From: Escherichia phage Phagiculus
DNA length: 46,458 bases
Sequence record: OR896821.1
Reading direction: 5' to 3' (one strand)
Below the pieces are notes generated by a model. It was given only the letters and a program-made list of their open reading frames with translations, had not been told where the DNA came from and did not search any database. This document shows, one piece after another, positions 101 to 44,053 of this stretch (positions within the stretch are counted from its first letter, which is position 1; each line of letters begins with the position of its first letter). Made by a program: the position numbers and the translations under genes.

Positions 101-3073
101 TTAATTGTAACCCTTAAGAAAATTATAAAGCCTACCGCCTTGCTGCGCTGACTTCTCAAGCTCCTCAGCGACAATCAGTCTCACACCGCTCTCAATCGCC
201 TTAGCTTCTCCATCTGAGTTGCTTGAGCCGCCAACATTGACCGTAACTCCGCCAACGTTAACAGATGTTAAGCCGCCGCCAACAAGACCGCCATTCGCAT
301 AACCAGCGCTTAGATTGCCAACTGAGCCGCCATTAGCATATCCACGCATTAGCTTGTAAAGGTTTCCAACGCCAATCCTTGAAGTTGCCTCTTTTGTAAA
401 TACAAACTCTCCTTTGTGAACCGTGCCAGCTGGTTCGTACTTGCCACCGTTACCAGTGTAGCCGCCATCAGCGAAACCTAAAGCAGATATTAGCCCACTG
501 CCAGAGCTAGCTGCCGAGCCGCCACCAAAACTGCTGATAGTTGACTCAATAGCTTTAACTATAAGTAATTGAGTAGCAATCTTAGCGATCTGCTGAAGTA
601 TTGACGCTGCAAACTCCTTAAAGTTCGCCTTACCAGTAGTGAGGAGGCTTGTGATATTGTCTGTAATTCCAGTTAATACACTCTTTGTTAGATCGTAGCT
701 TATTTGGGCGAGGTTAGTTGCTTCAGCTGTGTAATCTTTAAATGCATCACTGGCGCCAGCAAGGAAGTCAGACCTTGCTAAATCCTCCTGCTTATAGAAA
801 GCCTCCTGAGCATCCCTAATTGCTTTATAGTCAGGGGAGTCAAGACTTCCACCCCTATTTAGCTGGTAAGATTCAGCTTTCGCCCTTTCTTGATTTCTGG
901 CATTCTCTATAGACCCGCTACCCCTATTGGATAGAGCAGCAGTCTGAGCAGCTAATTCTCTAGCCTTTTTAAGGTTATCGTCCTGAAGTTTATTCGCCCT
1001 TTCCTGCAAAACAATCTGATCGCCAAGTTCAGCTTTCTGTCTTGCCAATTCGAGAACCTTATCTTTCTCAATGAGAAGTCTGGCCTGCTCTCTTTTTATT
1101 GTACCAGCGTCCCGGCGCTCCTCGAGGATTGCAAACTTAGCTTCTTCGGCGAACAGCTGCTTGCGTTCATTACTGATTACGTCGCTAATCTGGCGGTGAT
1201 CTTTAAGAACCCTAAGCTGAGCCTCTAATGCAAGGACTCCAGACTCGTAGCTCAGCGTCAAATCTCTTTGGCTACCTACACCCTCCTTGCGCTTCTTGTT
1301 GGATTCCTCAATATCCTTAAGCTCCTGCTCTCTTGCCTTCCTACGCTTTTCAAATTCAGCGTCTGACTCACCCGTCCTTTGCTTCTCATCCTGAGAAGGC
1401 GTTACATAACCTAACTCACCTTTACGAATCCTAGCATCTCGCTCAGCGATTGACTTGATTAGCTCCTGATTGGCCTTCTCTATACCCTGGTTCTGCTCCT
1501 CAAACTGCTTAATTAGATCACTACCCACTCCTTTGGCCCCTGGTATCTTCTGGAAGGCCTTTAGAGAGGAAATCAAAAAGTCGTTGATGAGAATGTCACC
1601 CTGACCAATAAACAAACTGATTTGCTCAATTGTTTTAGCAACAACATCAGTGATAAGGTTGAGAGCGCCAAGCGTCCTGTTTCCAATGTCAGTCCAAATT
1701 CTTGATATGAAGTTCCTGAAGCCCTGCCATGCTCGCTCAAGTGGTGTAAGTGATTCGGCAACTTTAGTAAGGCGATTCTCCATAACATCAGCGAATAACT
1801 TAGTGGCAGCCGTTACAGCTTGCGTTTCACCTTGCGTAACCCTGATTTGCTCAATGTATTTAAGCTGACCTGCGGTTAAGAAGTTAAACTGCTTATCTAG
1901 CTCAGCAAGACCTTTGACCGGGTCATTTGCAATCTTGTCGAAGCTCTTAACGATATCTTCAGCTGAGTCACCAGTTACTGTGGCCCATCTAGCGGTTGCC
2001 TCTGTGATAATAGAAATCTGCGCTACAGTGCGATTGCCGCTAGCAACCAAACCTTTGGCAATCTCTTGACCAAGCCCCTGAGTTGCACCAGCAGCTTCTG
2101 ACGCGTTCCTGGCAAGATTCTGTATCGCAGCAGCAGATAAATTCGCATTCTGCCCAGTCAGTGTAAGAGTCTTTTCAAGCTGCGCCGTATTCTGGTATGC
2201 CTGGTAAGCCGACAATCCTAAAGCACCAAGAGCTACACCAAGCGCGCCAGCTGCAACTATAAAAGGATTCAATGCTGCAAGTGCAAATCTGAAGGTGTTA
2301 GCCACACCGCCAAAGCTATCTTTAATCTGTCCACCCTGCTGGATTGCAATCAACCAGATTGGAATACCGCCAGCGAGTGAGGTCCCGATATCTGTAATTT
2401 GCGCTGGCAACTGCCTGATTGCGTTTCTATACTCACCAGCGCTAAGTCCTGACTTTCTGAATGCACCGGACTGAGCCGACAATGCCGCAGAAGCTCTATT
2501 TGATGCATCAGCTATCTGATTAATAATAGGCGCCGCCTGGCTTGAAACACCCAACTCAGCAGCGCGAAGCTTAAGTAATTCCTCTCGAGTTAGTGTCGCC
2601 GCCTGCGCCTCCGCCTGCAAAGACTTAAGGAATCTTTCTGCCTGAGTCGCCGCTGTAGCTTTTGCCTTTGATGCCTCTATCGCCGCTCTGCCTTCCTCTG
2701 TCAAGGCGCGCTGATTCGTTCTCAGGCGATTTGTTTGCGTCTCCAGTGCCTCGCTTAAGCGGTAGAACTCAGCCTCTGGAACAACTCCAGCCGTAAAAGC
2801 CTTGTCCAGTGAGTTCGCGGCTTCCTGCAACTTACGCAGCTTTGATGCGGTCGGGTCGATTGCTGATTGTAAAGACTGAAAGGCGCTACGCTGCTCAGAA
2901 AGATAACGAGCTGTATCTCTTGCTTGATTTTTTGCTACCTGTTCGGCGTTAACGAAGCTACTAATTCCAGCTGCAGCTTGCTCGTTTGCGCGCTTAAATT
3001 CCTGCAACGACCTAGTGCCCTGGTCTACCTGCCTTACGTCTACGCCTAATGTAATTCCGGCAAATTCAGCCAT
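101..3073 (-). CDS. tail tape measure protein
   Basis: about 990 aa, coiled-coil rich, Gly-rich C-terminus, directly downstream of chaperone G/GT and upstream of M-L-K-I-J; GGAGG RBS before ATG at 3073 (ORF-track start at 3121 lies upstream of the terminator-like hairpin). Confidence 0.85.
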
Positions 3074-3083
3074 ATTACCTCCA

Positions 3084-3110
3084 TAAAAAAACCTCCACGA
3101 GGGAGGTTTA
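3084..3110 (-). terminator. intrinsic terminator-like hairpin between chaperone GT stop and tape measure start
   Basis: minus strand ACCTCC-CTCGT-GGAGGT followed by TTTTTTT, then GGAGG RBS. Confidence 0.45.
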
Positions 3111-3788: not shown

Positions 3789-4490
3789 TTATTTACTGTT
3801 AGCAAGGTATAGCGCTTTAGCAAAGCCTCTTGGGGTAAGGCTTCTAATCATCTTAGTTCTTGCGCTCTTCCCGCCAAGTTTAGCCCAGCCTGGATTATCG
3901 GATGAGTTAGCATTAACCATCTTATCCTCAGGCATAACAAAGCCGTTTCCAGTCCAGAGGCAAGTTTTCTTATTGTAAGTATCCCTTCCAGGAATTATCT
4001 CAGGGAAGAACGGGTGCTTGTCATCCTCATCAAGATAGCCACCAAAATCACAAGGATGGAAAGTGTGATTTGGCCTTCTCCACATCGATGACAATACGCT
4101 AACTGGGTTCTCTATCATATATGGAGCGTTAAAGTGATTGGCTATATACTCAGCAATTCTGCAAGTTGACACCGCCTTGCGCTGAAAATCAGGGTCTTTT
4201 TCACCCTTAGATTTAAAGTGTCTTGAACCCGATACAGCAAGGTCAGTACACGGAGGGAATGCAATTATTAAATCTGGCTCACCAAAATAGCCTTTAACAG
4301 CCAGGTCCGCGAAAGATGAATCAATCCATGCATTAATGTATGTTATGTTCTCATGCTGAATCTTTGAGTTGTATTTGGCGTAGTCACCGTGGTCAGCGTC
4401 GTCATAGTTAAAACAAATCACCTTGTGACCGTTTTCTGCCCACGGCTGAGCTGCGATACCTGAACCATCAAATAAGCTGAATACTAACAT
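3789..4490 (-). CDS. DNA (cytosine-5) methyltransferase-like protein
   Basis: motif I-like LFDGSGI, motif IV-like FPPCTD with Pro-Cys, motif VI-like IENPVS; GAGGG RBS before ATG at 4490; preceded by terminator. Confidence 0.5.
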   Translation of the reverse strand: MLVFSLFDGSGIAAQPWAENGHKVICFNYDDADHGDYAKYNSKIQHENITYINAWIDSSFADLAVKGYFGEPDLIIAFPPCTDLAVSGSRHFKSKGEKDPDFQRKAVSTCRIAEYIANHFNAPYMIENPVSVLSSMWRRPNHTFHPCDFGGYLDEDDKHPFFPEIIPGRDTYNKKTCLWTGNGFVMPEDKMVNANSSDNPGWAKLGGKSARTKMIRSLTPRGFAKALYLANSK

Positions 4491-4525: not shown

Positions 4526-4552
4526 ACAAAAAAGACCCCTAAGGGTCTTTGC
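4526..4552 (-). terminator. intrinsic terminator after major tail protein gene
   Basis: minus strand AGACCC-TTAG-GGGTCT followed by TTTTTT. Confidence 0.6.
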
Positions 4553-4564
4553 AAAAAGTGCTAT

Positions 4565-17089: not shown

Positions 17090-17132
17090 ATAGTACCGCA
17101 TCCTTGCGATTGATGTTTAGCAATTCGTGCTA
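17090..17132 (-). promoter_or_regulatory. conserved promoter module (IR TAGCAC-N3-TTGCTA plus -10-like)
   Basis: plus-strand tagcaattcgtgcta at 17118..17132; minus-strand TACTAT 22 nt downstream; leader ATTGAAACGA. Confidence 0.55.
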
Positions 17133-17450
17133 TTTGCTCCAGTTATCCAGGTAATAACTATTGCTTACTACATGCTGAATCTTAGAGTAATCTCGATACT
17201 TATCAATAATCTCCTGAACGTGAGCGCCTCGCTGCTCATGGAACTCTACAGCCTTCTGAAGCGATACAATGGCCTCATTAATGTCAGTAGTATAATCCTT
17301 GTGTCGAGTGCGAATGCCGCTGCACAGAACCTTCTTTATGGCGTGCTGCAGTGCCGGGTCTGTTACTCCAAATGCTGCGATTACTCGATATACATCCACG
17401 GTAGTCTTGGTGCCATCAAGACCAATAATTTCTTTGTTGTACTTACTCAT
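17130..17450 (-). CDS. hypothetical protein (106 aa)
   Basis: ORF in early block. Confidence 0.55.
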   Translation of the reverse strand: MSKYNKEIIGLDGTKTTVDVYRVIAAFGVTDPALQHAIKKVLCSGIRTRHKDYTTDINEAIVSLQKAVEFHEQRGAHVQEIIDKYRDYSKIQHVVSNSYYLDNWSK

Positions 17451-18021: not shown

Positions 18022-18064
18022 ATTATATGTAATGCCATCCGTGGCGTCTTAGCAATTCGTGCTA
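18022..18064 (-). promoter_or_regulatory. conserved promoter module
   Basis: tagcaattcgtgcta at 18050..18064; minus-strand TATAAT at 18027..18022. Confidence 0.55.
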
Positions 18065-18078
18065 TTTCCCAATCAGGA

Positions 18079-19170: not shown

Positions 19171-19178
19171 CTAACGAA

Positions 19179-19222
19179 TAGCACTTTTTGCTAAAGACGA
19201 AACCACCATGATTGGGTATAGT
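19179..19222 (+). promoter_or_regulatory. conserved promoter module
   Basis: tagcactttttgcta then aagacg then TATAGT at 19217..19222; leader CCATCGAAACGAA. Confidence 0.6.
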
Positions 19223-19675: not shown

Positions 19676-19676
19676 A

Positions 19677-19719
19677 TAGCACTTTTTGTTAAAACAGGCA
19701 TTAAGAAAACGAGTATAGT
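19677..19719 (+). promoter_or_regulatory. conserved promoter module
   Basis: tagcactttttgtta, aaacag, TATAGT at 19714..19719. Confidence 0.55.
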
Positions 19720-20542: not shown

Positions 20543-20766
20543 TTCATGAACTAAAGATATTACCAGTACATTTTGATCCGGTAGATACTGGCCTTAAGCT
20601 GGCAGAGCTAAGAAAAAATGACAGAAATTTTTCTGTTGGTGATAAGTTGATACTCAAAGAGTTCCACGATGGTGCTTATACCGGAAGGATTACAATAAAA
20701 GAGGTATTACATATAGCTGATGTTTCCGAATATCTTCCAGGGTATGTTTTACTCTCAATGTATTAA
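20539..20766 (+). CDS. ASCH/DUF3850-like small protein
   Basis: MIHELKILPVHFDPV...LRKNDRNFSVGD pattern typical of the DUF3850 family. Confidence 0.45.
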   Translation: MIHELKILPVHFDPVDTGLKLAELRKNDRNFSVGDKLILKEFHDGAYTGRITIKEVLHIADVSEYLPGYVLLSMY

Positions 20767-20810
20767 TAGCACTTTTTGCTAATGACATTACCCGCCTCGG
20801 CGGGTATATT
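20767..20810 (+). promoter_or_regulatory. conserved promoter module
   Basis: tagcactttttgcta, -35-like ATGACA, TATATT; hairpin CCGCCTCGGCGG in spacer. Confidence 0.55.
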
Positions 20811-23222: not shown

Positions 23223-23247
23223 TAAAGGGGCTTACGCCCCTTTTTTA
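23223..23247. terminator. bidirectional terminator between convergent genes
   Basis: AGGGGC-TTAC-GCCCCT flanked by A-run and T-run. Confidence 0.55.
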
Positions 23248-23636
23248 TTGCCTACATATTTTAGTGAGAAGTAAGTCATTAGCCCCGCAATAAGCCCAGC
23301 CAGAATCCCCCAAGCAATAGAATCAACCCCAGAACTTTCGGAGCTATTAATCTCTATTTTTTCCGCATTAATTGAGTGCGCTGAGAGACCCGTAGCGGCT
23401 GTCTTTTTTCCGGCAGATGAATCTACATCCCTGTTAGTTGAGTTGCGCATATCGCTATCTGTGGCGCTAGATTTATCCGTTTGGTTAGATACTCCAACGC
23501 CAGTCTTTTGGTTAGACTCTCCAACCTGAGCAGTTGCTTCAATTCCATCTTTAGCAGGAAGTAAATCAGATACCGCAGAGAGGGCAGAGCAACCAGTCAG
23601 GAAGATAATTGCAGTTAGCGCAAGTGACTTAAGCAT
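23232..23636 (-). CDS. unimolecular spanin (T1 gp11-like)
   Basis: N-terminal lipobox LTGC, C-terminal TM helix, directly downstream of endolysin. Confidence 0.65.
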   Translation of the reverse strand: MLKSLALTAIIFLTGCSALSAVSDLLPAKDGIEATAQVGESNQKTGVGVSNQTDKSSATDSDMRNSTNRDVDSSAGKKTAATGLSAHSINAEKIEINSSESSGVDSIAWGILAGLIAGLMTYFSLKYVGNKKGA

Positions 23637-24100
23637 AGTTCCACCTCTGCATTTCTGCGGTTAACTAACCCTTTAGAAACAACCTTTTTGCCATTTACTG
23701 TAATCTTGTTGAACATCTTCAGCGCATTACATCCGCCATAAATGTCGCCCTGATTAATCTTTCTGATAGCCGTAGATTTACGCATAGCGCTTGTTCCGAC
23801 GTTAAAAGAGAAACTGTATAGTGCAGCCCTGGTATTAACCGGAACGTTCACATTCAATGCTTTATCAACAGCTAGTTGATGAATAGCTAGATGCTTAGCA
23901 AGGAGAGCATCACATTCTTTCTGTGTGTATGTCTTGCCTTTAATTACATCAGGGCCAGTAACCCCCTGGCATACCGTCCAAACACCAGCAACATCAAGGT
24001 ACGGCTTGTACTCAACGCCTTCATGCTTATTCAGGAATGGAACGGCAATGGCTATAGCGGAACCTACGGCGCCGCCAATAACTTTATTCTTTAGGTTCAT
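23615..24100 (-). CDS. SAR endolysin (GH24 lysozyme)
   Basis: E-x8-D-x5-T catalytic pattern (HEGVEYKPYLDVAGVWT) and N-terminal Gly/Ala-rich signal-anchor-release segment. Confidence 0.8.
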   Translation of the reverse strand: MNLKNKVIGGAVGSAIAIAVPFLNKHEGVEYKPYLDVAGVWTVCQGVTGPDVIKGKTYTQKECDALLAKHLAIHQLAVDKALNVNVPVNTRAALYSFSFNVGTSAMRKSTAIRKINQGDIYGGCNALKMFNKITVNGKKVVSKGLVNRRNAEVELCLSHLR

Positions 24101-24315
24101 TATTTACTCCTGATTCGCATAGCCTCACGAATATCTCCATCTTCAAGCGCCTTATGAAGTGCCTTACTGTCACGCCAGCGCAACCATGCGCCGAAAACAC
24201 CGAAGCACACAGCTATGATTAAGCCGATAATGCCGATTATTGTGTTGTCAGATAAGCCGCCACCCATAGCTACTCCGCTACCGGACAAAGCGGCTGCGTC
24301 GTAGAAATGTTTCAA
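24100..24315 (-). CDS. holin
   Basis: 71 aa, single TM, charged C-terminus, overlaps endolysin start. Confidence 0.6.
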   Translation of the reverse strand: MKHFYDAAALSGSGVAMGGGLSDNTIIGIIGLIIAVCFGVFGAWLRWRDSKALHKALEDGDIREAMRIRSK

Positions 24316-25020: not shown

Positions 25021-25063
25021 ATAATATCAGGTTTTTACTTTGTGTCTTTAGCAATTCGTGCTT
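25021..25063 (-). promoter_or_regulatory. conserved promoter module
   Basis: tagcaattcgtgctt (one mismatch); minus-strand TATTAT at 25026..25021; leader ATCGAAAACGAGAGAGG. Confidence 0.5.
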
Positions 25064-25205
25064 TTTCTAATGCTTCTTGAACTTCTTCAAAACTAGCAAT
25101 CAGCAAGCAAGCCATTACATTCTCATCAAATACTCGCCAACCTTTCCCGCTATATGCCGCTATGGTGTCGTGGTCGAAATAATTAATCTCGCTAGGTTTT
25201 AACAT
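25035..25205 (-). CDS. hypothetical protein (56 aa)
   Basis: internal ATG at 25205 adjacent to upstream stop. Confidence 0.4.
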   Translation of the reverse strand: MLKPSEINYFDHDTIAAYSGKGWRVFDENVMACLLIASFEEVQEALEKARIAKDTK

Positions 25206-25206
25206 A

Positions 25207-25431
25207 TCACACCTTCTTGGATTCGTTAGTGTAGCATTCAAGAATGATTTTCTTATCTTCAATTGAAAGTGATGAGTGATTTAACCAATCAACAATCGTA
25301 TTCACATCAAATCCTTCCAGGTAGATTGATTTACCTTGTTCACACAAATCAACTGAATTTGGTTTATCTGCTGCATCTGCGTTAACACTCGCCGCTGCCA
25401 TGAGGATTGTTGCAATAATCAGCTTCTTCAT
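25207..25431 (-). CDS. small secreted/periplasmic protein (signal peptide MKKLIIATILMAAASVNA)
   Basis: N-terminal signal peptide pattern; downstream of promoter module. Confidence 0.5.
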   Translation of the reverse strand: MKKLIIATILMAAASVNADAADKPNSVDLCEQGKSIYLEGFDVNTIVDWLNHSSLSIEDKKIILECYTNESKKV

Positions 25432-25463: not shown

Positions 25464-25507
25464 AATATAGCGCCTTTCGGCGCTATAGTCTTTAGCAAAA
25501 AGTGCTA
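25464..25507 (-). promoter_or_regulatory. conserved promoter module with hairpin in spacer
   Basis: tagcaaaaagtgcta at 25493..25507; ATAGCGCC-TTTC-GGCGCTAT hairpin; TATATT. Confidence 0.5.
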
Positions 25508-26644
25508 CTTAGTGAACATTTTAGGACGGCAGATGAATCGACCAACCTCGCCAAACTCTTTATGATAAATAATTACCGCAGCCTGACGCTGTGAACGCCA
25601 GCCTCCATTTGCACTGTATGCGTCAGGAGAGCCAAGCTGACCGTGAACCTCGTCAATACCCAAGTTAGTCTCTGTAATCTTCTGTGAGTGCCAGTGCCCT
25701 GAGTGGGTGTAAACATAATCACTAACACCAAAATCACGTCGCCAATCAGTAGCCATAACAGTCAATCGCGTTTCGGCTTTCCGCATCTGGTGGCCGTGAG
25801 TGTATCCAATCAAAGTAGAGCCAAACTTAGTAACCATCATAGCCGCGGGGCTTACGTCAACCGTGACTCGAGGCTCATCCTCATAGAATGCAGCAAGAGC
25901 GGCGCGAAGCCAAACCATACCAGATTCGTCGTGGTTGCCAGAAATTGTTTTAATATCAATAGTTTGGTGCTTCTCAAGCATCTTACGAATAGCTCGACGA
26001 ACAGACCTAATACAAACATAAACAATCTTAGCATAACGGCTGTCGCTGTCTAAAATATGACCGCTTGCAGGTGTCTTAGCCTCAAGTGAATCATAGTGAA
26101 TCAAGTCACCACCAAGTACAAGTACGGCATTCTTTGAGTTCGGCGCTTCATTTACAGCATAATCAAAGAAGTCATTCATTACCTTTTCTGCGGTTGCCGT
26201 GTCGTAGTTTTCACCACACTCATGCTTGTGAGCCATAGCGCCAATATGAAGGTCAAATACAGGGTACATAGCCAAAGTGTTTTCATCAAAAACTTTACCC
26301 TTAACTTCAACTGGTTCTTCTTTAGGTAACTCGGAGCAGAAAGCCTCTCGAGCTTGCTCCATCAACTGCTCAAGTCGCTCATTGTCAACGCTAGTCTTGA
26401 CCCACCGAATCTTCTCATTTCCTTCTGCGTCAATCATGGTTGATGTTCCCTTCACCATGTAACCATCTGGAACAAGCTTCTTAATGCCAGGATTTCCATG
26501 CAACTCACCAGCCTTAGCCAGCTTACTACGACGCAATTCAACATTGCGAATATTCATACCGTACTTCTCTGCGATTGCCTTGTTAGTCATTCCGTTCGCC
26601 AGTTCTTCACGAAGCTGTTCGTTGCTGATTTTTGCAGTTGCCAT
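25505..26644 (-). CDS. metallophosphoesterase (Mre11/SbcD-like) with N-terminal HTH
   Basis: FDLHIG, GGDLIH, GNHDE, GHWH motifs; N-terminal GMTNKAIAEKYGMNIRNVELRRSKL. Confidence 0.7.
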   Translation of the reverse strand: MATAKISNEQLREELANGMTNKAIAEKYGMNIRNVELRRSKLAKAGELHGNPGIKKLVPDGYMVKGTSTMIDAEGNEKIRWVKTSVDNERLEQLMEQAREAFCSELPKEEPVEVKGKVFDENTLAMYPVFDLHIGAMAHKHECGENYDTATAEKVMNDFFDYAVNEAPNSKNAVLVLGGDLIHYDSLEAKTPASGHILDSDSRYAKIVYVCIRSVRRAIRKMLEKHQTIDIKTISGNHDESGMVWLRAALAAFYEDEPRVTVDVSPAAMMVTKFGSTLIGYTHGHQMRKAETRLTVMATDWRRDFGVSDYVYTHSGHWHSQKITETNLGIDEVHGQLGSPDAYSANGGWRSQRQAAVIIYHKEFGEVGRFICRPKMFTK

Positions 26645-28032: not shown

Positions 28033-28075
28033 ATAATACATCACTTCTCCGATTCGTCTTTAGCAATTAGTGCTA
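28033..28075 (-). promoter_or_regulatory. conserved promoter module
   Basis: tagcaattagtgcta at 28061..28075; aagacg; minus-strand TATTAT at 28038..28033; leader CATCGAAACGAAACG. Confidence 0.6.
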
Positions 28076-28450
28076 TTTTGATAAGTAATCCTCAATCGCC
28101 AGCTTAAACATTTCAAAACCGTAACAGATAGCTGCGTAACCTCCTGTTTCTGATACCTTTTCTAGGAAATCCTTTTGCTCCTTTGAAACCTTGCTATCTG
28201 ATTTTATTGCGCGCTTAAGTTCGATTGCCGCGAATCCATTTGGTCCAATCAGCAAGATATCTGAAACTCCCTTGATTACACCTTCCTGCTTATCCTTGAC
28301 GGCAGTTCCAATTGACTTCAGGCCTTCATTCTTGACGTGAAAGGCAAATATCTCAGGGTGGTTATGACGCACCCAAGCAATCGAATTAACCTGGTGAACA
28401 ACCTCTTTAGCTTTATCCGTGCTTGTCTTGTCGTGAAATACTTTAATCAT
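28073..28450 (-). CDS. VRR-NUC domain nuclease
   Basis: GVSDILLIGPNGFAAIELK D...E.K pattern; AAGGAG RBS before ATG at 28450. Confidence 0.5.
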   Translation of the reverse strand: MIKVFHDKTSTDKAKEVVHQVNSIAWVRHNHPEIFAFHVKNEGLKSIGTAVKDKQEGVIKGVSDILLIGPNGFAAIELKRAIKSDSKVSKEQKDFLEKVSETGGYAAICYGFEMFKLAIEDYLSK

Positions 28451-30422: not shown

Positions 30423-30459
30423 ACACGACAAGCGAAAACACTTTTAGCAAAAAATGCTA
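30418..30459 (-). promoter_or_regulatory. conserved promoter module (divergent with 30395..30422)
   Basis: tagcaaaaaatgcta at 30445..30459; minus-strand TATTAT at 30423..30418. Confidence 0.5.
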
Positions 30460-30469
30460 TCGAGGTTAA

Positions 30470-35921: not shown

Positions 35922-35964
35922 ACTATACACCATCGATTTAATCCTGTTTTAGCTATTCGTGCTA
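35922..35964 (-). promoter_or_regulatory. conserved promoter module
   Basis: tagctattcgtgcta (one mismatch); minus-strand TATAGT at 35927..35922; leader CCTAATCGACAAAAAAGAGAGA. Confidence 0.5.
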
Positions 35965-35966
35965 TA

Positions 35967-37951: not shown

Positions 37952-38602
37952 TTAGTTCAGTTTCAAAATCTCGCTATTTTTATCAACCAGCTTATTAATT
38001 AACTCATCCTTATCAGCCAGCTTATGGCAAAGAGTCTCACACTGAGCCTGATATGAGTAAACCAACTCTTGCGAGTCAAAGTATCTACCTGATTCAAACT
38101 TCAATTCGTACATCTTTTTGTCAACCTCCTCGCCATCTGAAGCCTTGTCGATGTACTTATAGATAATCTTCTCAAGTTTATAAACTTCATCCTCAGCGCG
38201 GTTTCTAGCAGCAATCTCTTTCGTAGTCTGCATCTTCTCCTTTAGAACCAGGTCGTAAGAAACCATCTTAGCTACATGCTCTTTCAGTAACTTGTTTTCC
38301 CGCTCAAGCTGCTTAATCTTTTTAATCATGTTCATTCGCGCTTTCGCGCTGTACTTCGCAACAAGGCATAACGCGTGGTCCTTGTCGAGTAAAGCTACCT
38401 TGTGAGTCTGTCCTTTGTTGTTATATTCACGGTCCCGAAATTCGGGAGCGTGATTCTCTCCATAAAGATCAATGTACATTTCTTTTGCTGCATTAAAGAC
38501 ATGCTCATGCCTTTGACCAACAACTCCAGCAATATCAAAGGTGGTCATTGTAATTTCTTCATCAGTATTCATTAAGTTCATTGTTTGCTCTCTTATTGTC
38601 AC
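37952..38602 (-). CDS. Rha-like phage regulatory protein with coiled-coil C-terminus
   Basis: TTFDIAGVVGQRHEHVF ... KVALLDKDHALCLVAKYSAKAR pattern typical of the Rha family. Confidence 0.45.
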   Translation of the reverse strand: MTIREQTMNLMNTDEEITMTTFDIAGVVGQRHEHVFNAAKEMYIDLYGENHAPEFRDREYNNKGQTHKVALLDKDHALCLVAKYSAKARMNMIKKIKQLERENKLLKEHVAKMVSYDLVLKEKMQTTKEIAARNRAEDEVYKLEKIIYKYIDKASDGEEVDKKMYELKFESGRYFDSQELVYSYQAQCETLCHKLADKDELINKLVDKNSEILKLN

Positions 38603-38651
38603 TGCTCAAATCTGAGCAGACTGGCAAGCACTATTGCCGCCGCTGAGTTAA

Positions 38652-38693
38652 ATATACCCGTTCAGAAGCATCCTGTTTTGACTAATCGTGCTA
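38652..38693 (-). promoter_or_regulatory. degenerate conserved promoter module
   Basis: tgactaatcgtgcta (half-site degenerate); aaacag; GTATAT; leader contains hairpin CTGCTCA-AATC-TGAGCAG. Confidence 0.35.
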
Positions 38694-38869
38694 TTTTGTA
38701 TACCAGCGTAAAACTATCCAATTTACAGATTCCCCCACCTGCAACACCGCCATCACTTGATGTAACCGATGTATATAGAGTAAACAAGAAAAAATCACCC
38801 ACATCTATATCTATAGATAAATGCAGGTATGTATATGCTCGTAAAAATGAAGATTATACGCCCATCGCC

Positions 38870-39272
38870 TCATGAGCCCGCACCAACACTGGATGTAACT
38901 CATGTAAACGCTGTAACAGTAGTTTTTGCGCCCCTATCTATATATCCATATGCATTTGGCAACACCAGAAACAGAACTTAGTCATTTCAAAAAAACATAT
39001 CAACACAACCATAGAAGGTAGTTACACTATATACAAACAAATATAGTAATAATAATAATTACTCTAAACCCTTATTATATAAGGATTCTTTAGTGTAACT
39101 AATGCGTATCTGCGCGTAAAAAGCGTATACAATTTCCCGCGGGTCAGGATTGCATACATCGATTTACATAGGTTACGCGTATATCAAATAGCACGATTTG
39201 CTAAAGACTGACTGAAGCACCTTTGGTATAGTTACTCCATCGAAACGAAAAACACTTAATAAGGATTCAAAA
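38870..39272. repeat. AT-rich control region B, paralogous to 18670..19260
   Basis: same ordered sequence blocks as region A, ending in conserved promoter module. Confidence 0.6.
39189..39232 (+). promoter_or_regulatory. conserved promoter module
   Basis: tagcacgatttgcta, aagact, TATAGT at 39227..39232; leader TACTCCATCGAAACGAA identical to the one at 19222..19250. Confidence 0.6.
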
Positions 39273-39377
39273 ATGACTAACTTCGCAACCAACGTACTGG
39301 CTTTCACCTTCGGCGTGGCGACTACCAGCTTCTTCGTTTGGGTTCTTCTTCTGGCTAGCAACTTTAAAGGATTCTAA
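39273..39377 (+). CDS. small membrane peptide (34 aa, MTNFATNVLAFTFGVATTSFFVWVLLLASNFKGF), not in ORF track
   Basis: AAGGA RBS 8 nt before ATG; one TM helix; stop 1 nt before lipoprotein ATG. Confidence 0.4.
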   Translation: MTNFATNVLAFTFGVATTSFFVWVLLLASNFKGF

Positions 39378-39378
39378 T

Positions 39379-39600
39379 ATGAAAAAGTTAATCGTTATCG
39401 CGGCAATGATGTTAGGCGGATGCTCTACGATGCCAGAGCGCACTTGTACGGCGATTTATGAGTCTGGTGGTATGAGTTACTCGGTTTATGTTTTTGGCAC
39501 GCAGAAGCGCGGCGAGGAGATTTTACTGAGGGCTGGGTATCCATTCTCGTTTCATTACGTGTCTGAGCGGAATTTTAGAGACCACGATTGTGGCGGTTGA
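39379..39600 (+). CDS. small lipoprotein (Cor/Llp-like superinfection exclusion candidate)
   Basis: signal peptide with lipobox LGGC (MKKLIVIAAMMLGGCS); 73 aa; convergent with the tail tip gene cluster. Confidence 0.5.
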   Translation: MKKLIVIAAMMLGGCSTMPERTCTAIYESGGMSYSVYVFGTQKRGEEILLRAGYPFSFHYVSERNFRDHDCGG

Positions 39601-39604
39601 TAAA

Positions 39605-39628
39605 GAAAAAGCCCCGAAAGGGGCTTAG
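39605..39628. terminator. bidirectional terminator between convergent genes
   Basis: AAGCCCC-GAAA-GGGGCTT with flanking A-run. Confidence 0.6.
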
Positions 39629-40296
39629 TCGTATGCGGCGGTATATATTGCTGTAACTCTAGCACCGTTTGTCGTTCCACCAGAAGCCTGCGTGCCATTT
39701 ATCAATGGAACTGCATTTATCCTAGTCTGTGATCCATTGTATCTACAGGATATGCCAGCAGTAGCCGACCTTATTATCTGCTGACCATTCTGAACCTGAT
39801 AAACGTTAAGAGTGCCAAGAGCGGCTGGGCAAACAGCTACGCTTCCGCTGTAAGTTCTATCTATGTCTATACCTCGCCCATCAACGGTAAACAAATCGCT
39901 AAGAACCTTACTCTCATTAGTGAGGACTAATTTGCCTGCTGAATCCCATATAGCCATACCCCATTGCGGAAGTGATTGCGGAAATATAGCAAAAACATAA
40001 GCCGTCAAGCTAAAAGCCTGCCCTGCATAGTTTGTTCCACTAATGTAAATGGTTCCGGCATTAGCGCCTTCAGTAATGTTGTACGCTATAACTGCAACGC
40101 CTTGAGAAGGGCTGCTTGTCTTAATAAATACACTTACCGGATAAGTGGAATTGAAAGGCAGGTACTGAGTAACGCTATGTGCCGCCGAATTCCCAGATGA
40201 CTGGAATGTGTACTTCCCGTAGAGGCAGAATGGAGTTGAAGCTGGAGTTATGAATGGGTTTCCATTAACATCAATTATTGCACCATAATCAGCCAT
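39625..40296 (-). CDS. tail-associated protein (223 aa)
   Basis: downstream of J; N-terminus MADYGAIIDVNGN paralogous to neighbour. Confidence 0.45.
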   Translation of the reverse strand: MADYGAIIDVNGNPFITPASTPFCLYGKYTFQSSGNSAAHSVTQYLPFNSTYPVSVFIKTSSPSQGVAVIAYNITEGANAGTIYISGTNYAGQAFSLTAYVFAIFPQSLPQWGMAIWDSAGKLVLTNESKVLSDLFTVDGRGIDIDRTYSGSVAVCPAALGTLNVYQVQNGQQIIRSATAGISCRYNGSQTRINAVPLINGTQASGGTTNGARVTAIYTAAYD

Positions 40297-40648: not shown

Positions 40649-43600
40649 TTAGAAAGTACCAGTCAAACGACCAATCTGTACGCGAAGCCTTCCGTTTGCA
40701 TCAGCAACTGAAATGGTCTGGTTTGTCTGCTTCATCCTGCCTTCTCCAGCCGTAAATCCGTTGTTTTCGAAAGTTCCAGCTTTATCAAGCCTCCATCCAG
40801 TATTGTTTGCGACAAAGTTGTTAGACTGAATCGCGTTGCCAATCTTAGCGTTAGTGATTGAACCGTCCTGAATCACCGCGCTTTGGATGAATACCTGGTT
40901 GTTCTCGACAACGAAAGGCAGCGACCACTGACCGGAACCCTGGCTAATGCCGTTACTGATTGCAAATCTGTTAGCATCAAAGATGAACTGACTTCTAACA
41001 TTACCACCAGATCCAACAAGCTCCATACTCATGCCCGCGCCGTACTCCATTCCCTGATACTTAAGGCCAAGCTTAACACCATACTGAACACCAACACCTT
41101 CAGCCGTCGCGTAAGTATCTAGCTTCTCATTAAGAGCGGCTTCATTTTCCCCAAGCCTTGCGCTTAATGCCGTGTCAGCTGTAGCCCTTGCTTCAGTCTC
41201 TGTTGCCAGCGCTGTTTCGATGGTTGTAATCTGTCCTACAATCTCATCATCTATCTGCGCTTTAAGCTGCGTAAGGGCCTCTACACGAGCCTGTGTTTCA
41301 TCAGCTATCAGATTTACAGCCTGTCGATATTCCGCCTTCCTTGCGCCGTTTTCGCGTGTCATAATCCGAACATCAATATCGTTTGCCAGAGCGTTCTCAA
41401 TGATTGCCTCGGCCTGGTTTTGAATATCAGTGTTTGAATTAATGGCATTCTGAAGAAGGTATTTGTAACCATCAGAATCTTCAATATCAACCTTGATTTC
41501 ACCAATGATTGCAGTTACATCATCAGAAGCCATGCCTCTAACAAACTCAGTCCATTGAGAAACGTTGCCGATTCTGTCAATGGCCCTAGCCCTGTACCAT
41601 CTTACGTTGCCTGCCGGAAGAGTAGTGTGCCAGTACTCATACTGAGGGTATGGAACAAGGCTCAGTAATGAAGCATTCTCGGGAGAATAAGTACCGTCAC
41701 CATTATCAGGAACTTGCTGCAACTCAACATATGCAGTATCCGCACTGTTCTCGCCAAAGCCCCACTTAACTCTGATGCCAAATACCTCATCATCTGAAGC
41801 GGTTATTACAGCTAACGGTTCAGGCTCGCCAATCTTTCCAGTCAGAGAAACGGTTACGATTTCAGACCATGCGGAAACTGATTTCTGGTCAGTAACAGCT
41901 CGCACCCTAACGTCATAGATGCCAGCGTAGATGCCCTCAATATCAACCTCGGTGTTGGCAGTCTCCGGTACGTTAATCCAGTTACCGTTATTCTTACGCC
42001 ACTGCACGTTGTATGTTTTTGCATACTGCACTTTGTCGTAACCAATAACCATCGTTTCAACGCTTAATCCCTGAACAACCTTACTGTAGCTTGATACTCT
42101 TAGGTTCTCTGGTGGCAAGATTCTGTCAGGGTCAACGATACTTGTTGGTCTGTCATCGATGTTCACACCGTAGTCAATCTCATCGTACTTGTTCGGGTCA
42201 TACTGCACGGCGGTAATGTTGTATTGGAATGAATCATCTCCGTCAGTATTTGCTTTTTGAATCCCTGTCACCACATATTGCTGCAAAGCCAGATTCTGCT
42301 TATCAATTGCGAATACTGTGTCAGGCTGCGGATTGAAGCTAAACGCGGTGTTAAGTTCAATCGTTAACTTATCCTGAGATACAGAGGCAATAGTGCGGTA
42401 CTCTGGGCTTCCGTCCGGCTTGTTAATCAGAATCCTGTCGCCAGGTTCAGCATCAATCGCGAATGGAACGAAAACTTGCAAACCAGAAGCCTCAACGATA
42501 CGACCGGAAAGGTTTAGCGTGTAGTTGCTTGACCAAGCCTGGTCATTAACAGCAATAACATCACCAACCATTGGAATCATGCCTTCAAGACCAGTGGTGA
42601 AGCTGATTGTTTCGCTTCTCAGGTTCGTCTTCAGCAACCAGCGACCCCTACGGTTCGCTTCACTCCTTCGCGTACAGCCAATGGCAGAAAGGTCAACTGG
42701 ATTAAATCCAAATCTGCGCGTAGCCTCGAGCTCGAATACTGGCTCAATATCTTGCTGGTAGTTGTTCTGCTCATCATCAAACTGGACGTTAGCGGTAGTG
42801 TACAGGCTCTTGTCGCTTGAGAATGTGCGGCTAAACAATCCATCCACAACGTTATCGTTTGTGAATACGTAGCTCGGCTGACGCGGTTTATCAACAACAA
42901 TACCAATCTTCTCGCCATCATAAAAAGTAAGACCACGGAAGATTGAGCAAATATCACGAATAAGCTGATATGCCTCTACCTTCTGTTGGATAACTACGTC
43001 GCACAAGTAGCGAGGCTCCAAACCACCCTTACCGTCAGGAACCATCTGGTCACAGAATTGTGCGGCTTCATACAGCCCCCACTTATCAATCTCAACACCA
43101 AGCTCGCGCTGGTCAAGGCCGTATCGCTGACTAACCACCAGGTCATAAAGAACCCATGCCGGGTTATTTGACCACGCCATCTTGAAAGTTCCATCCCAAG
43201 TGCCGCTATACTGCCGCGTCTCTGGGTTGTAGTTTGTTGGAACTCTAATCAACTTCCATTTCTTCTTAATGGCGATAGTCGGGATGCCATTTGGGAATAG
43301 GTCAGAGCTAAACTCAACATAAACTAAAGCGGTTAGTGGATACCGGAATTTTGCATCAATTACTTCCTGGTAGGTTGTAATCTGCATACCGTTAACTAGT
43401 GTGCTACTCGTTGAGTCGGGAGTTATCTTACGAATGCGGACAAGAGCACTACTAAACTCGGCTGGTAAATTGACACGGATAGAGCGGTCATAACCCGTTG
43501 TAGTCTTACCGTTAGCCACGCCTCTAGTATATTGGGTGTACGCTCCGCCATTAACAGATAAATCAATTGCATACTCACACGTTGTGCCATTTAAATCTCC

Positions 43601-44005
43601 ATTACTTTCCTGCTTAACAAGACGAGGCCAGAATAACTTCACTCGAATCGCTGAAAGCTGATTGTTAGTTACTGAAATGATGTACGGGGTATCATTATTG
43701 ATTTCTCTGGATACCTGGAACTCAGATGATGCCCCATCAAGACCCGCAATGTAATTTTGCGATTGCGTGCCAGGGCGAAACTGAGCGCTTACACCTTCAT
43801 AGTTGAAAGAGTTATCCGCGTTCTGAACGGGAACATCTGCAAGGTACAAATCCTTAAGTGAGAAGCTAGAGTCAACCTCGCCATCGGCAACAGCAAGCAG
43901 AACCTTAATCTTGTTCAGTGAAATCAGGTTATCTTCTTGCTCAACTGGTGTGTGTGTCTTTTGACTACCACCCTTGCTTCCGTAAATCTTTGGCAAATCG
44001 GCCAT
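40649..44005 (-). CDS. tail tip / host specificity protein J-like (central tail fibre)
   Basis: about 1120 aa; N-terminal SKGGSQKTHTPVEQEDN resembles lambda J; fibronectin-like middle region; start among three close ATGs (44044/44035/44005). Confidence 0.85.
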   Translation of the reverse strand: MADLPKIYGSKGGSQKTHTPVEQEDNLISLNKIKVLLAVADGEVDSSFSLKDLYLADVPVQNADNSFNYEGVSAQFRPGTQSQNYIAGLDGASSEFQVSREINNDTPYIISVTNNQLSAIRVKLFWPRLVKQESNGDLNGTTCEYAIDLSVNGGAYTQYTRGVANGKTTTGYDRSIRVNLPAEFSSALVRIRKITPDSTSSTLVNGMQITTYQEVIDAKFRYPLTALVYVEFSSDLFPNGIPTIAIKKKWKLIRVPTNYNPETRQYSGTWDGTFKMAWSNNPAWVLYDLVVSQRYGLDQRELGVEIDKWGLYEAAQFCDQMVPDGKGGLEPRYLCDVVIQQKVEAYQLIRDICSIFRGLTFYDGEKIGIVVDKPRQPSYVFTNDNVVDGLFSRTFSSDKSLYTTANVQFDDEQNNYQQDIEPVFELEATRRFGFNPVDLSAIGCTRRSEANRRGRWLLKTNLRSETISFTTGLEGMIPMVGDVIAVNDQAWSSNYTLNLSGRIVEASGLQVFVPFAIDAEPGDRILINKPDGSPEYRTIASVSQDKLTIELNTAFSFNPQPDTVFAIDKQNLALQQYVVTGIQKANTDGDDSFQYNITAVQYDPNKYDEIDYGVNIDDRPTSIVDPDRILPPENLRVSSYSKVVQGLSVETMVIGYDKVQYAKTYNVQWRKNNGNWINVPETANTEVDIEGIYAGIYDVRVRAVTDQKSVSAWSEIVTVSLTGKIGEPEPLAVITASDDEVFGIRVKWGFGENSADTAYVELQQVPDNGDGTYSPENASLLSLVPYPQYEYWHTTLPAGNVRWYRARAIDRIGNVSQWTEFVRGMASDDVTAIIGEIKVDIEDSDGYKYLLQNAINSNTDIQNQAEAIIENALANDIDVRIMTRENGARKAEYRQAVNLIADETQARVEALTQLKAQIDDEIVGQITTIETALATETEARATADTALSARLGENEAALNEKLDTYATAEGVGVQYGVKLGLKYQGMEYGAGMSMELVGSGGNVRSQFIFDANRFAISNGISQGSGQWSLPFVVENNQVFIQSAVIQDGSITNAKIGNAIQSNNFVANNTGWRLDKAGTFENNGFTAGEGRMKQTNQTISVADANGRLRVQIGRLTGTF

Positions 44006-44053
44006 ATCATATAACCTCGTTATTTGTTTAACCATTTGTGACATTCTACACTA

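What the first reader, a model, noticed from the sequence alone, without database searches (positions are those of the whole stretch)
39273..39600. Small membrane peptide plus lipoprotein operon convergent with the tail tip genes: superinfection exclusion candidate
A conserved promoter module drives a 34-aa single-TM peptide followed 1 nt later by a 73-aa lipoprotein (lipobox LGGC). Small outer-membrane lipoproteins placed next to the tail-tip gene in T1/phi80/T5-type phages (Cor, Llp) block the phage's own receptor. The co-transcribed TM peptide is an unannotated partner.
Basis: partly seen in the sequence, partly recalled or inferred. Interest (0 to 1): 0.6.

Follow-up and report, generated by a model that had tools for sequence, protein, structure and literature searches.

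The report
Cor exclusion lipoprotein plus small membrane peptide
This is the well-known Cor gene of T1-like phages, whose lipoprotein blocks the phage's own FhuA receptor. A real, conserved, unnamed 34-residue membrane peptide sits in front of it, but relatives pair that peptide with unrelated genes, so it is probably not a dedicated Cor partner.

Summary
ORF 39273-39377 encodes a 34-aa hydrophobic peptide. One base later, ORF 39379-39600 encodes a 73-aa lipoprotein. Both lie downstream of a repeated promoter-like module and converge on the tail-tip genes.

The lipoprotein is Cor. It passes the NCBIfam equivalog NF047972 (47.9 bits, cut-off 31) and PHROG 1119 (E 5.7e-27). It is 74% identical to T1 Cor, and its model is closest by TM-score to T5 Llp. 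Close relatives already annotate it as Cor, so this part is known.

The peptide is a real gene. About 160 Drexlerviridae records carry it at 34-38 aa, with the C-terminal motif WV.xLA.xF(K/N)GF-stop. Pairwise dN/dS was below 1 in all 15 comparisons, and it has its own Shine-Dalgarno site. No Pfam, PHROG, NCBIfam or PADLOC family matches it, and none of the papers I searched or read mentions it.

It is probably not a Cor-specific partner:
- Only about 13 of 232 Cor-bearing phage records have it.
- T1 lacks it entirely.
- Other genera couple the same peptide to a different lipoprotein, to Dam methylase, or to the SH3 gene next to the lysis genes.

The "promoter module" is the published 21-nt T1-family repeat of unknown function, present 13 times in this window.

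Verdict: a known system plus an uncharacterised accessory small membrane protein. Interest is modest.

The parts
39186..39206 (+). 21-nt T1-family intergenic repeat (aaATAGCACgatTTGcTAAAg). It is the upstream box of the promoter-like module and contains the palindrome TAGCA-N5-TGCTA.
   Evidence: No mismatch to ATAGCACnnnTTGnTAAA. There are 13 copies in the window against 0.53 expected. The consensus was published for phage TLS and its function is unknown (PMC11447400).
39227..39232 (+). -10-like hexamer TATAGT, preceded by TGG (an extended -10 form).
   Evidence: A similar -10-like hexamer (TATAGT, TATTAT, TACTAT and variants) follows nearly all of the 13 repeats at about the same distance. 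The consensus scan did not call a standard sigma-70 promoter here, because TTGCTA lies 22-23 nt from the hexamer (and direct reading).
39233..39249 (+). Conserved leader / start-site region TACTCCATCGAAACGAA.
   Evidence: Three copies in the window against 0.09 expected. The same block precedes peptide homologues in other genera.
39261..39265 (+). Shine-Dalgarno sequence AAGGA for the peptide.
   Evidence: Duplex energy with the anti-SD sequence is -6.0 kcal/mol; the site ends 7 nt before the ATG.
39273..39377 (+). 34-aa single-span membrane peptide gene, a member of an unnamed family specific to Drexlerviridae.
   Evidence: ORF confirmed. Hydrophobicity supports one span. Homologues are 34-38 aa with invariant G14, W23, V24, L27, A28, F31, G33 and F34. 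dN/dS is 0.11-0.83, and third-codon-position changes dominate.
39367..39371 (+). Shine-Dalgarno sequence AAGGA for cor, lying inside the last codons of the peptide gene.
   Evidence: Duplex energy -5.4 kcal/mol; the site ends 7 nt before the ATG at 39379. The peptide stop and the cor start are 1 nt apart.
39379..39600 (+). cor, encoding the 73-aa phage exclusion lipoprotein Cor. The signal peptide is 39379-39420 and the lipidated Cys15 codon is 39421-39423.
   Evidence: NCBIfam NF047972 equivalog, 47.9 bits against a cut-off of 31. PHROG 1119, E 5.7e-27. 74% identical to T1 Cor and 35% to phi80 Cor. Lipobox confirmed. The AF2 model has pLDDT 83.7, and its best TM-score match is T5 Llp, 8a60_B.
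39609..39626 (.). GC-rich hairpin (GCCCC-GAAA-GGGGC core) between the convergent operons. It looks like a good terminator on the minus strand and a weaker one on the plus strand.
   Evidence: The terminator scan calls it on the minus strand, with a T-run. Fold energy is -16.8 kcal/mol; on the plus strand only TT follows the stem.
39625..40296 (-). 223-aa protein of the cor cassette. This is the candidate receptor-binding gene of the FhuA-type locus (homologue of T1 orf31).
   Evidence: PHROG 425, E 9.3e-58. The T1 homologue occupies the same position. Literature associates this cassette with FhuA (PMC13164509).
40296..40601 (-). 101-aa protein of the cor cassette (homologue of T1 orf32).
   Evidence: PHROG 557, E 6.7e-26. 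Same position as in T1.
40649..44044 (-). J-like tail-tip protein, 1131 aa.
   Evidence: ORF confirmed. Homologous genes are annotated as tail fiber or J-like tail tip protein in Phleasolo, MM01, JulesPiccard and T1.

Best explanation
The region is a two-gene operon of a T1-like (Drexlerviridae) phage close to the Rogunavirinae.

Promoter and terminator. Transcription most likely starts just downstream of one of the 13 copies of the family's 21-nt repeat / -10-like module. It runs into the hairpin shared with the convergent tail-tip operon.

Gene 2 is Cor.
- By analogy with lipoprotein biogenesis in E. coli, Cor is exported and lipidated on Cys15. Because residue +2 is Ser and not Asp, it should be sorted to the inner leaflet of the outer membrane.
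- By analogy with the solved T5 Llp-FhuA complex and published work on Cor, it binds the periplasmic face of FhuA. The receptor then no longer supports adsorption or DNA injection by FhuA-dependent phages.
- This would exclude competitors and stop progeny from being wasted on cell debris.

Gene 1 is a real 34-aa inner-membrane peptide.
- It is translated from its own Shine-Dalgarno site and is tightly coupled to whatever gene follows it.
- It belongs to an unnamed family confined to Drexlerviridae, which behaves as a promoter-proximal accessory cassette.
- Its neighbour changes between lineages: Cor, a second lipoprotein, Dam methylase, or the SH3 gene. It therefore most likely acts on its own in the cytoplasmic membrane, not as a subunit or helper of Cor.

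Shown here: the ORFs, family membership of Cor, conservation and purifying selection on the peptide, and the variable contexts.

Inferred: the promoter activity, Cor's localisation and target, the peptide's membrane insertion, and any peptide function.
For: Cor identity:
- NCBIfam equivalog NF047972, 47.9 bits against a cut-off of 31, and PHROG 1119, E 5.7e-27.
- 93% identical to Sd1 Cor, 74% to T1 Cor and 35% to phi80 Cor.
- 23 invariant columns shared with 15 homologues, including Cys15, Cys23 and Cys71.
- The lipobox fits PS51257.
- The AF2 model (pLDDT 83.7) has its highest TM-score and lowest rmsd in the PDB to T5 Llp bound to FhuA: 8a60_B, TMt 0.67, 2.8 A. The Cor profile also hits the Llp sequence at E 0.0036.
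- The convergent cassette (PHROG 557 plus PHROG 425) is the one the literature ties to FhuA (PMC13164509; PMC8594841).

The peptide is a gene:
- The same length and C-terminal motif occur in every locus examined.
- dN/dS is 0.11-0.83 in all 15 pairs. Differences by codon position are 753/625/1180.
- It has its own Shine-Dalgarno site.

The peptide is independent of Cor:
- 13 of 232 Cor-bearing records carry it.
- An HMM search of all T1 reading frames finds none.
- It is coupled to Dam in Webervirus and to SH3 plus the lysis genes in BrunoManser, AAS23, LF82-40, Ec_L1 and K62PH164C2.
- In IME253 and Rao1 it is coupled to a 61-aa lipoprotein that is not a clear Cor family member (only a weak PHROG 1119 match, E 7e-05), while the peptide stays about 70% identical to the window peptide and 85% to that of Sd1. 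IME253 uses FepA (PMC8594841).

Promoter module: 13 copies, each oriented towards the ORF downstream of it, matching the published TLS repeat.
Against: - No experiment on this phage exists, and I could not run one.
- In the Braunvirinae/Rogunavirinae clade the peptide always sits in front of an exclusion-type lipoprotein at this locus. A clade-specific functional link is therefore not excluded.
- The Foldseek E-value for Llp is weak (0.13). Tudor and chromo domains score similar E-values, so the fold match rests on TM-score and rmsd.
- The promoter has non-canonical spacing, and the consensus scan did not call it.
- The plus-strand terminator is weak.
- FhuA as the target is inferred from homology and cassette type, not shown.
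Confidence: 0.72

Rival explanations
1. Dedicated two-component exclusion system. The peptide is a cofactor of Cor: it helps Cor's export or maturation, or it forms with Cor an envelope-spanning block on the FhuA/TonB route.
For: The two genes are co-transcribed and 1 nt apart, with the cor Shine-Dalgarno site inside the peptide gene. In about 18 records of the Braunvirinae/Rogunavirinae clade the peptide always precedes a small lipoprotein at the tail-tip locus. Its partners there belong to FhuA-type and FepA-type cassettes, and both receptors are TonB-dependent.
Against: About 94% of Cor-bearing records lack it, including T1 and phi80, where Cor function was described. Homologues precede Dam or SH3 in other genera. 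BrunoManser keeps Cor and the peptide 12 kb apart. The peptide stays nearly unchanged when the mature lipoprotein is swapped for a different one.
Confidence: 0.12
2. The peptide is an autonomous second layer of exclusion or host takeover at the cytoplasmic membrane. It would bind a host inner-membrane component needed for DNA entry or receptor energisation (for example the TonB-ExbBD complex or a sugar-transporter channel), in the way HK97 gp15 or T4 Imm act from the inner membrane.
For: It is a conserved single-span helix with small-residue motifs (G14, T18, G/S19) of the kind that mediate helix packing. It is first in its transcription unit in every locus examined. It is independent of which outer-membrane receptor cassette is present. 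In this clade it lies at the exclusion locus. What is known of HK97 gp15 and T4 Imm comes from my own knowledge, not from a test here.
Against: There is no homology to any known exclusion protein: PADLOC, PHROG, Pfam and NCBIfam are all negative. Many Drexlerviridae, including T1 and Rogue1-type phages, do without it. The contexts next to Dam and next to the lysis genes say nothing about exclusion.
Confidence: 0.2
3. The peptide tunes lysis or membrane integrity, for example as a modulator of the pinholin / SAR-endolysin system.
For: In several genera it lies two genes upstream of holin-endolysin-spanin, directly before the SH3 gene that a 2026 paper proposes as a lysis accessory (PMC13164509).
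Against: In the window it is about 15 kb from the lysis genes (23232-24315). In T1 a terminator separates the SH3 gene from the holin. It lacks the charged C-terminal tail typical of holins and antiholins.
Confidence: 0.1
4. The ORF is only a leader (upstream ORF) whose translation loads ribosomes onto the next gene, and the peptide itself does nothing.
For: It is always promoter-proximal, and its stop codon lies 0-10 nt from the next start codon whatever that gene is.
Against: The amino-acid sequence is under purifying selection with many synonymous changes, most strongly in the C-terminal half. The F(K/N)GF end is kept even where the downstream Shine-Dalgarno site lies after the stop codon. 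The other 12 promoter copies in the window have no such leader.
Confidence: 0.08

Closest known systems
Cor of phages T1, phi80, N15, HK022 (phage exclusion lipoprotein; NCBIfam NF047972, PHROG 1119)
   Same: Same family by curated profile. 74% identical to T1 Cor. Same size, lipobox and conserved cysteines. Same position, convergent with the J gene and the two small FhuA-type cassette genes.
   Different: Here cor is driven by the T1-family 21-nt repeat module, not the separate AT-rich upstream region seen in T1. It is also preceded by a translationally coupled 34-aa membrane peptide gene that T1 and phi80 lack.
Llp of phage T5 (lytic conversion lipoprotein; PDB 8A60 in complex with FhuA)
   Same: Small outer-membrane lipoprotein thought to block FhuA from the periplasmic side. 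The predicted Cor fold superposes best on Llp (TMt 0.67, rmsd 2.8 A, 23% identity). There is a weak profile hit, E 0.0036.
   Different: Sequence similarity is marginal and falls largely in the signal peptide and the first strands. Llp belongs to a different phage family and lies next to a different receptor-binding protein (pb5). This is 'works like Llp', not membership.
Rtp-type phage lipoprotein that binds the periplasmic face of LptD (PDB 9RPS chain D)
   Same: It occupies the same locus behind the same promoter and leader in Rogue1/AHP42-type relatives. Its first four codons (MTNF) are even those of the peptide gene.
   Different: Its mature protein is unrelated and it targets a different receptor. 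No separate peptide gene is present in those phages.
Small inner-membrane exclusion proteins such as HK97 gp15 and T4 Imm (comparison from my own knowledge)
   Same: Phage-encoded, small, membrane-embedded and encoded among or near tail/receptor genes. They are a possible functional analogy for the peptide.
   Different: No sequence similarity was detected, and they are larger proteins with more than one span. The analogy is untested.
21-nt intergenic direct repeat of T1-like phages (aaATAGCACnnnTTGnTAAAA; phage TLS paper PMC11447400)
   Same: Same consensus, same orientation towards the downstream gene, and a similar distance to the start codon: 72-113 nt here against about 76 nt in TLS.
   Different: Nothing differs. 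The literature has not assigned it a function. Here it is always followed by a -10-like hexamer and a conserved leader, which supports a promoter role.

Membership tests
Cor phage exclusion lipoprotein (NCBIfam NF047972 / PHROG 1119) | Sequence scores above the curated family cut-off over its full length. | tested here: met
   47.9 bits against a cut-off of 31, residues 1-71 of 73. PHROG 1119, E 5.7e-27, residues 1-72.
Cor phage exclusion lipoprotein (NCBIfam NF047972 / PHROG 1119) | Lipoprotein signal peptide with a lipobox cysteine, and no Asp at +2 (outer-membrane sorting). | tested here: met
   MKKLIVIAAMMLGGC fits PS51257, and residue +2 is Ser. Actual lipidation and sorting cannot be tested here.
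Cor phage exclusion lipoprotein (NCBIfam NF047972 / PHROG 1119) | Encoded at the receptor-specificity locus next to the J-like tail-tip gene, together with the FhuA-type cassette genes. | tested here: met
   It is convergent with PHROG 425 (223 aa), PHROG 557 (101 aa) and J. T1 has the same arrangement.
Cor phage exclusion lipoprotein (NCBIfam NF047972 / PHROG 1119) | Expression excludes FhuA-dependent phages. | not testable with these tools
   Needs plating and adsorption assays.
T5 Llp family | Detectable sequence homology to Llp. | tested here: inconclusive
   The Cor profile against PDB sequences hits 8a60_B at E 0.0036, over query positions 1-43 only.
T5 Llp family | Same fold as Llp. | tested here: inconclusive
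   Best TM-score and rmsd in the PDB (TMq 0.58, TMt 0.67, 2.8 A), but the Foldseek E-value is 0.13 and Tudor-like domains rank alongside.
   About 13 of 232 Cor-bearing records have it upstream of cor. T1 has none.
   They are found before Dam, before SH3 plus the lysis genes, and before a non-Cor lipoprotein.
Holin / antiholin | Membrane protein encoded in the lysis cassette, with a charged cytoplasmic tail. | tested here: not met
   It is about 15 kb from the lysis genes in the window. It is 34 aa with one charged residue, and no PHROG lysis family matches.
T1-family 21-nt intergenic repeat | Matches aaATAGCACnnnTTGnTAAAA, points towards the downstream gene, and lies some 70-90 nt before its start codon. 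| tested here: met
   No mismatch at 39188-39205 and 85 nt to the ATG. There are 13 copies against 0.53 expected. The consensus comes from PMC11447400.

The most novel reading that the evidence does not exclude
The 34-aa peptide is the founding member of an undescribed family of Drexlerviridae inner-membrane effectors. It would travel as a promoter-proximal cassette and act independently of the outer-membrane receptor. The most interesting version is a second, cytoplasmic-membrane layer of superinfection exclusion or receptor de-energisation, for example through TonB-ExbBD, that complements Cor. My data do not exclude this. The peptide is kept with FhuA-, FepA- and YncD-type phages and is absent from LptD-type relatives. 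T1, which uses FhuA, lacks it, so the correlation is not strict.
Probability: 0.2. Interest if true: 0.55.

Novelty: new member of a known kind. Interest (0 to 1): 0.3.

Why it matters
The Cor part adds nothing new beyond another family member. It does support predicting FhuA as this phage's receptor from the genome alone.

The useful by-product is the peptide. It is a conserved small membrane protein under purifying selection, present in about 160 sequenced T1-like phages, including nearly all the Klebsiella Webervirus records that turned up. These phages are used in phage therapy work, and gene callers often miss or mis-start this gene. It has no family name and appears in none of the papers I searched or read.

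The locus also shows how receptor and exclusion cassettes are swapped in these phages. The recombination joints fall inside the shared promoter/leader and inside the lipoprotein signal peptide. That matters for engineering host range.

Tried and rejected
- Peptide against Pfam, PHROGs, NCBIfam and PADLOC: no hit.
- phmmer of the peptide against 1.84 billion representative proteins: no hit at E <= 0.001.
I used a back-translated motif scan instead. It found nothing in 185,579 bacterial and archaeal genomes, 1 metagenome contig and 17 IMG/VR contigs already seen. I therefore found no host or prophage homologue.
- Second copy of the peptide in the window: none.
- Rfam scan of 38500-39750: nothing.
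- Opposite-strand ORFs 39173-39361 and 39267-39443: rejected, because substitutions concentrate on third codon positions of the plus-strand frame.
- Frameshift fusion of the peptide to Cor: rejected. There is no slippery sequence, and the spacing to the next gene varies from 0 to 10 nt among homologues.
- A standard sigma-70 promoter: the scan does not call one at the module.
- Literature searches for the repeat sequence and for Drexlerviridae transcriptomes gave nothing relevant beyond the TLS paper.

Full report
**What is there**

The window reads as an essentially complete genome of a T1-like siphophage. Its nearest database relatives at this locus are Rogunavirinae-type phages at about 85% identity.

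At the finding's coordinates I confirm two plus-strand ORFs:
- 39273-39377, 34 aa, MTNFATNVLAFTFGVATTSFFVWVLLLASNFKGF.
- 39379-39600, 73 aa, starting one base after the first ORF's stop codon.

Each has an AAGGA Shine-Dalgarno sequence ending 7 nt before its ATG. The one for the second gene lies inside the last codons of the first. The pair converges on three minus-strand genes: a 223-aa gene, a 101-aa gene and the 1131-aa J-like tail-tip gene. A GC-rich hairpin at 39609-39626 lies between the two operons.

**The lipoprotein is Cor**

- It passes NCBI's equivalog model for the phage exclusion lipoprotein Cor (47.9 bits, cut-off 31) and PHROG 1119 (E 5.7e-27).
- tblastn finds it in 232 phage records: 93% identical in Shigella phage Sd1, 74% in T1 and 35% in phi80. 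Most are annotated as Cor or superinfection exclusion protein.
- The signal peptide MKKLIVIAAMMLGGC fits the lipoprotein pattern. Residue +2 is Ser, which in E. coli means outer-membrane sorting (the sorting rule is established knowledge).
- Cys15, Cys23 and Cys71 are invariant among 16 homologues.
- An AlphaFold2 model (pLDDT 83.7) has its best TM-score and rmsd in the PDB to T5 Llp in its complex with FhuA (8a60_B, TMt 0.67, 2.8 A). The Foldseek E-value is only 0.13, and small beta-barrel domains rank beside it.
- A Cor profile also touches the Llp sequence at E 0.0036.
- A 2026 paper reports the same Cor-Llp similarity for a T1 relative. It ties Cor plus the two small convergent genes (PHROG 557 and PHROG 425, both present here) to FhuA use (PMC13164509). 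Earlier work describes this locus as the receptor-specificity plus exclusion locus of small siphophages (PMC8594841; bioRxiv 10.64898/2026.04.02.716166).

This half of the finding is correct and already known.

**The promoter module**

The motif ATAGCACnnnTTGnTAAA occurs 13 times in the window against 0.53 expected. Every copy points at the ORF downstream of it. Almost every copy is followed about 40 nt later by a -10-like hexamer (TATAGT, TATTAT and variants), then by a CATCGAAACGA-like block, then by a start codon 72-113 nt from the repeat.

This is the 21-nt intergenic direct repeat published for phage TLS and noted in T1, Rtp and Rogue1. Its function is listed there as an open question (PMC11447400). 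T1 has at least eight copies. The spacing from TTGCTA to the hexamer is 22-23 nt, so it is not a textbook sigma-70 promoter, and the consensus scan does not call one. A promoter role is therefore plausible but inferred.

**The peptide is a real gene**

tblastn with the window peptide and with a divergent homologue each find about 160 phage records. All are Drexlerviridae or mislabelled relatives: 127 Klebsiella, about 25 Escherichia, 4 Shigella, 4 Enterobacter, plus Pantoea and Citrobacter.

In the 25 or so loci I read:
- The ORF is 34-38 aa with invariant G14, W23, V24, L27, A28, F31, G33 and F34, and it ends ...WV.xLA.xF(K/N)GF-stop.
- Pairwise dN/dS among six cor-linked copies is 0.11-0.83.
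- Across twelve copies, differences by codon position are 753/625/1180, and 355/275/690 in the conserved C-terminal half.
- The C-terminal residues are kept even where the next gene's ribosome-binding site lies after the stop codon, so the constraint is on the protein.
- It is hydrophobic enough for one membrane span.

It matches no Pfam, PHROG, NCBIfam or PADLOC family. A motif scan finds it in no bacterial genome. The two recent papers on this locus and on T1-like genomes do not mention it. GenBank treats it inconsistently: hypothetical protein in some records, 'putative integral membrane protein' once, N-terminally over-extended twice, and uncalled in MM01, Sd1, Sf12 and IME253.

**Is it Cor's partner? 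The contexts say probably not**

1. The peptide-cor arrangement occurs in about 13 of the 232 Cor-bearing records: MM01, Sf12, Sd1, the Phleasolo group, BUCT-XGG-1, JulesPiccard, RobRod40 and A110b.
2. T1 has cor behind a different upstream region. An HMM search of every T1 reading frame finds no peptide.
3. In IME253, ZL19, TR3, phiA2-1 and Rao1 the conserved block comprises the promoter, the peptide and the first 12 or so codons of the signal peptide. A different 61-aa lipoprotein and different convergent genes follow. IME253 is reported to use FepA (PMC8594841), and phiA2-1 was isolated on a fhuA deletion host.
4. In Rogue1/AHP42-type phages the same promoter, leader and first four codons (MTNF) run straight into the LptD-binding exclusion lipoprotein known from PDB 9RPS (E 1e-32). 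There is no separate peptide.
5. In Webervirus and PHB17 the peptide directly precedes the Dam methylase.
6. In BrunoManser, SRT8, IME347, IME-JL8, AAS23, Ec_L1, LF82-40 and K62PH164C2 it precedes the small SH3 protein upstream of holin-endolysin-spanin. BrunoManser also has cor, 12 kb away.

In every case the peptide is the first gene after a copy of the 21-nt module, and its stop codon is 0-10 nt from the next start codon.

The simplest reading is an accessory, promoter-proximal small membrane protein whose job does not depend on Cor or on a particular outer-membrane receptor. The shared promoter/leader and the shared signal-peptide sequence look like the recombination joints used for cassette exchange. 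A link to exclusion lipoproteins limited to the Braunvirinae/Rogunavirinae clade cannot be ruled out.

**How it most likely works**

Cor (by homology and published analogy, not shown here):
1. It is exported, lipidated and sorted to the outer membrane.
2. It binds FhuA from the periplasm.
3. It thereby shuts off adsorption and injection by FhuA-dependent phages.

The peptide (inferred): it inserts into the cytoplasmic membrane as a single helix and acts there on its own. My rough split is:
- about 20% inner-membrane exclusion or receptor de-energisation;
- about 10% lysis or membrane tuning;
- about 12% a true Cor helper;
- about 8% a mere translational leader;
- the remainder, some other host-membrane target.

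One untested lead: the peptide is kept with FhuA-, FepA- and YncD-type phages, all of which use TonB-dependent receptors, and it is missing from LptD-type relatives. T1 breaks the pattern.

**Verdict**

The exclusion-lipoprotein interpretation is right, but it is already annotated knowledge. The 'partner' claim is not supported. The peptide is a genuine, unnamed, conserved small protein worth a simple plasmid and deletion test. Interest is 0.3.

Noticed in passing
window, 13 sites: 4547-4564(-), 17116-17133(-), 18048-18065(-), 19178-19195(+), 19676-19693(+), 20766-20783(+), 25047-25064(-), 25491-25508(-), 28059-28076(-), 30443-30460(-), 35948-35965(-), 38677-38694(-), 39188-39205(+): These are copies of the T1-family 21-nt repeat. 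Almost every copy is followed by a -10-like hexamer at about 40 nt, a CATCGAAACGA-like leader, and an ORF. The core is a palindrome (TAGCA-N5-TGCTA). The TTGCTA box lies 22-23 nt from the hexamer, too far for a standard sigma-70 promoter, and the spacer often holds a GC hairpin. This hints at a phage-specific activator or operator site. The literature lists the repeat's function as unknown.
   Followed up: partly
window 38603-39187: This is a 585-bp AT-rich divergent intergenic region between the anti-repressor-like gene (37952-38602, minus strand) and the peptide-cor operon. It holds a degenerate 133-bp direct duplication (about 38697-38830 and 38830-38963) and many GTAAC/GTTAC motifs. T1 has similar TGTTACA motifs upstream of its cor. 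It could be a regulator-binding or replication-related region.
   Followed up: no
L002 (AHP42) 2847-3092; L029/L030 (Rao1, IME253) 2001-2292: These loci show the recombination joints of the receptor/exclusion cassette. AHP42/Rogue1 switch sequence after the fourth codon (MTNF) into the LptD-type exclusion lipoprotein (homologue of PDB 9RPS chain D). IME253-type phages switch inside the lipoprotein signal peptide into a 61-aa lipoprotein that matches the Cor PHROG only weakly (E 7e-05).
   Followed up: partly
L001 (Phleasolo) 2773-2952; L005 (JulesPiccard) 2450-2605; L003 (MM01) 2501-2605: Database annotation of the peptide is inconsistent. PHLEASOLO_29 ('putative lipoprotein', 59 aa) and bas03_0032 (51 aa) start too far upstream, inside the promoter/leader. 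MM01, Sd1, Sf12 and IME253 do not call the gene at all.
   Followed up: yes
window 25207-25431 (-): This is a 74-aa ORF with a cleavable-looking, non-lipoprotein signal peptide (MKKLIIATILMAAASVNA...). It is the first gene after the repeat at 25508, the position where other genera carry the peptide-SH3 pair. No homologue of the SH3 protein was obvious in the window by eye; I ran no search for one.
   Followed up: no
L028 (T1) 1992-2102 and 4047-4157: T1 lacks this peptide family but has two other annotated 36-aa single-span ORFs (CPTT1_005 and CPTT1_011) in its early region. Tiny membrane proteins therefore seem to be a recurrent, unstudied feature of these phages.
   Followed up: no
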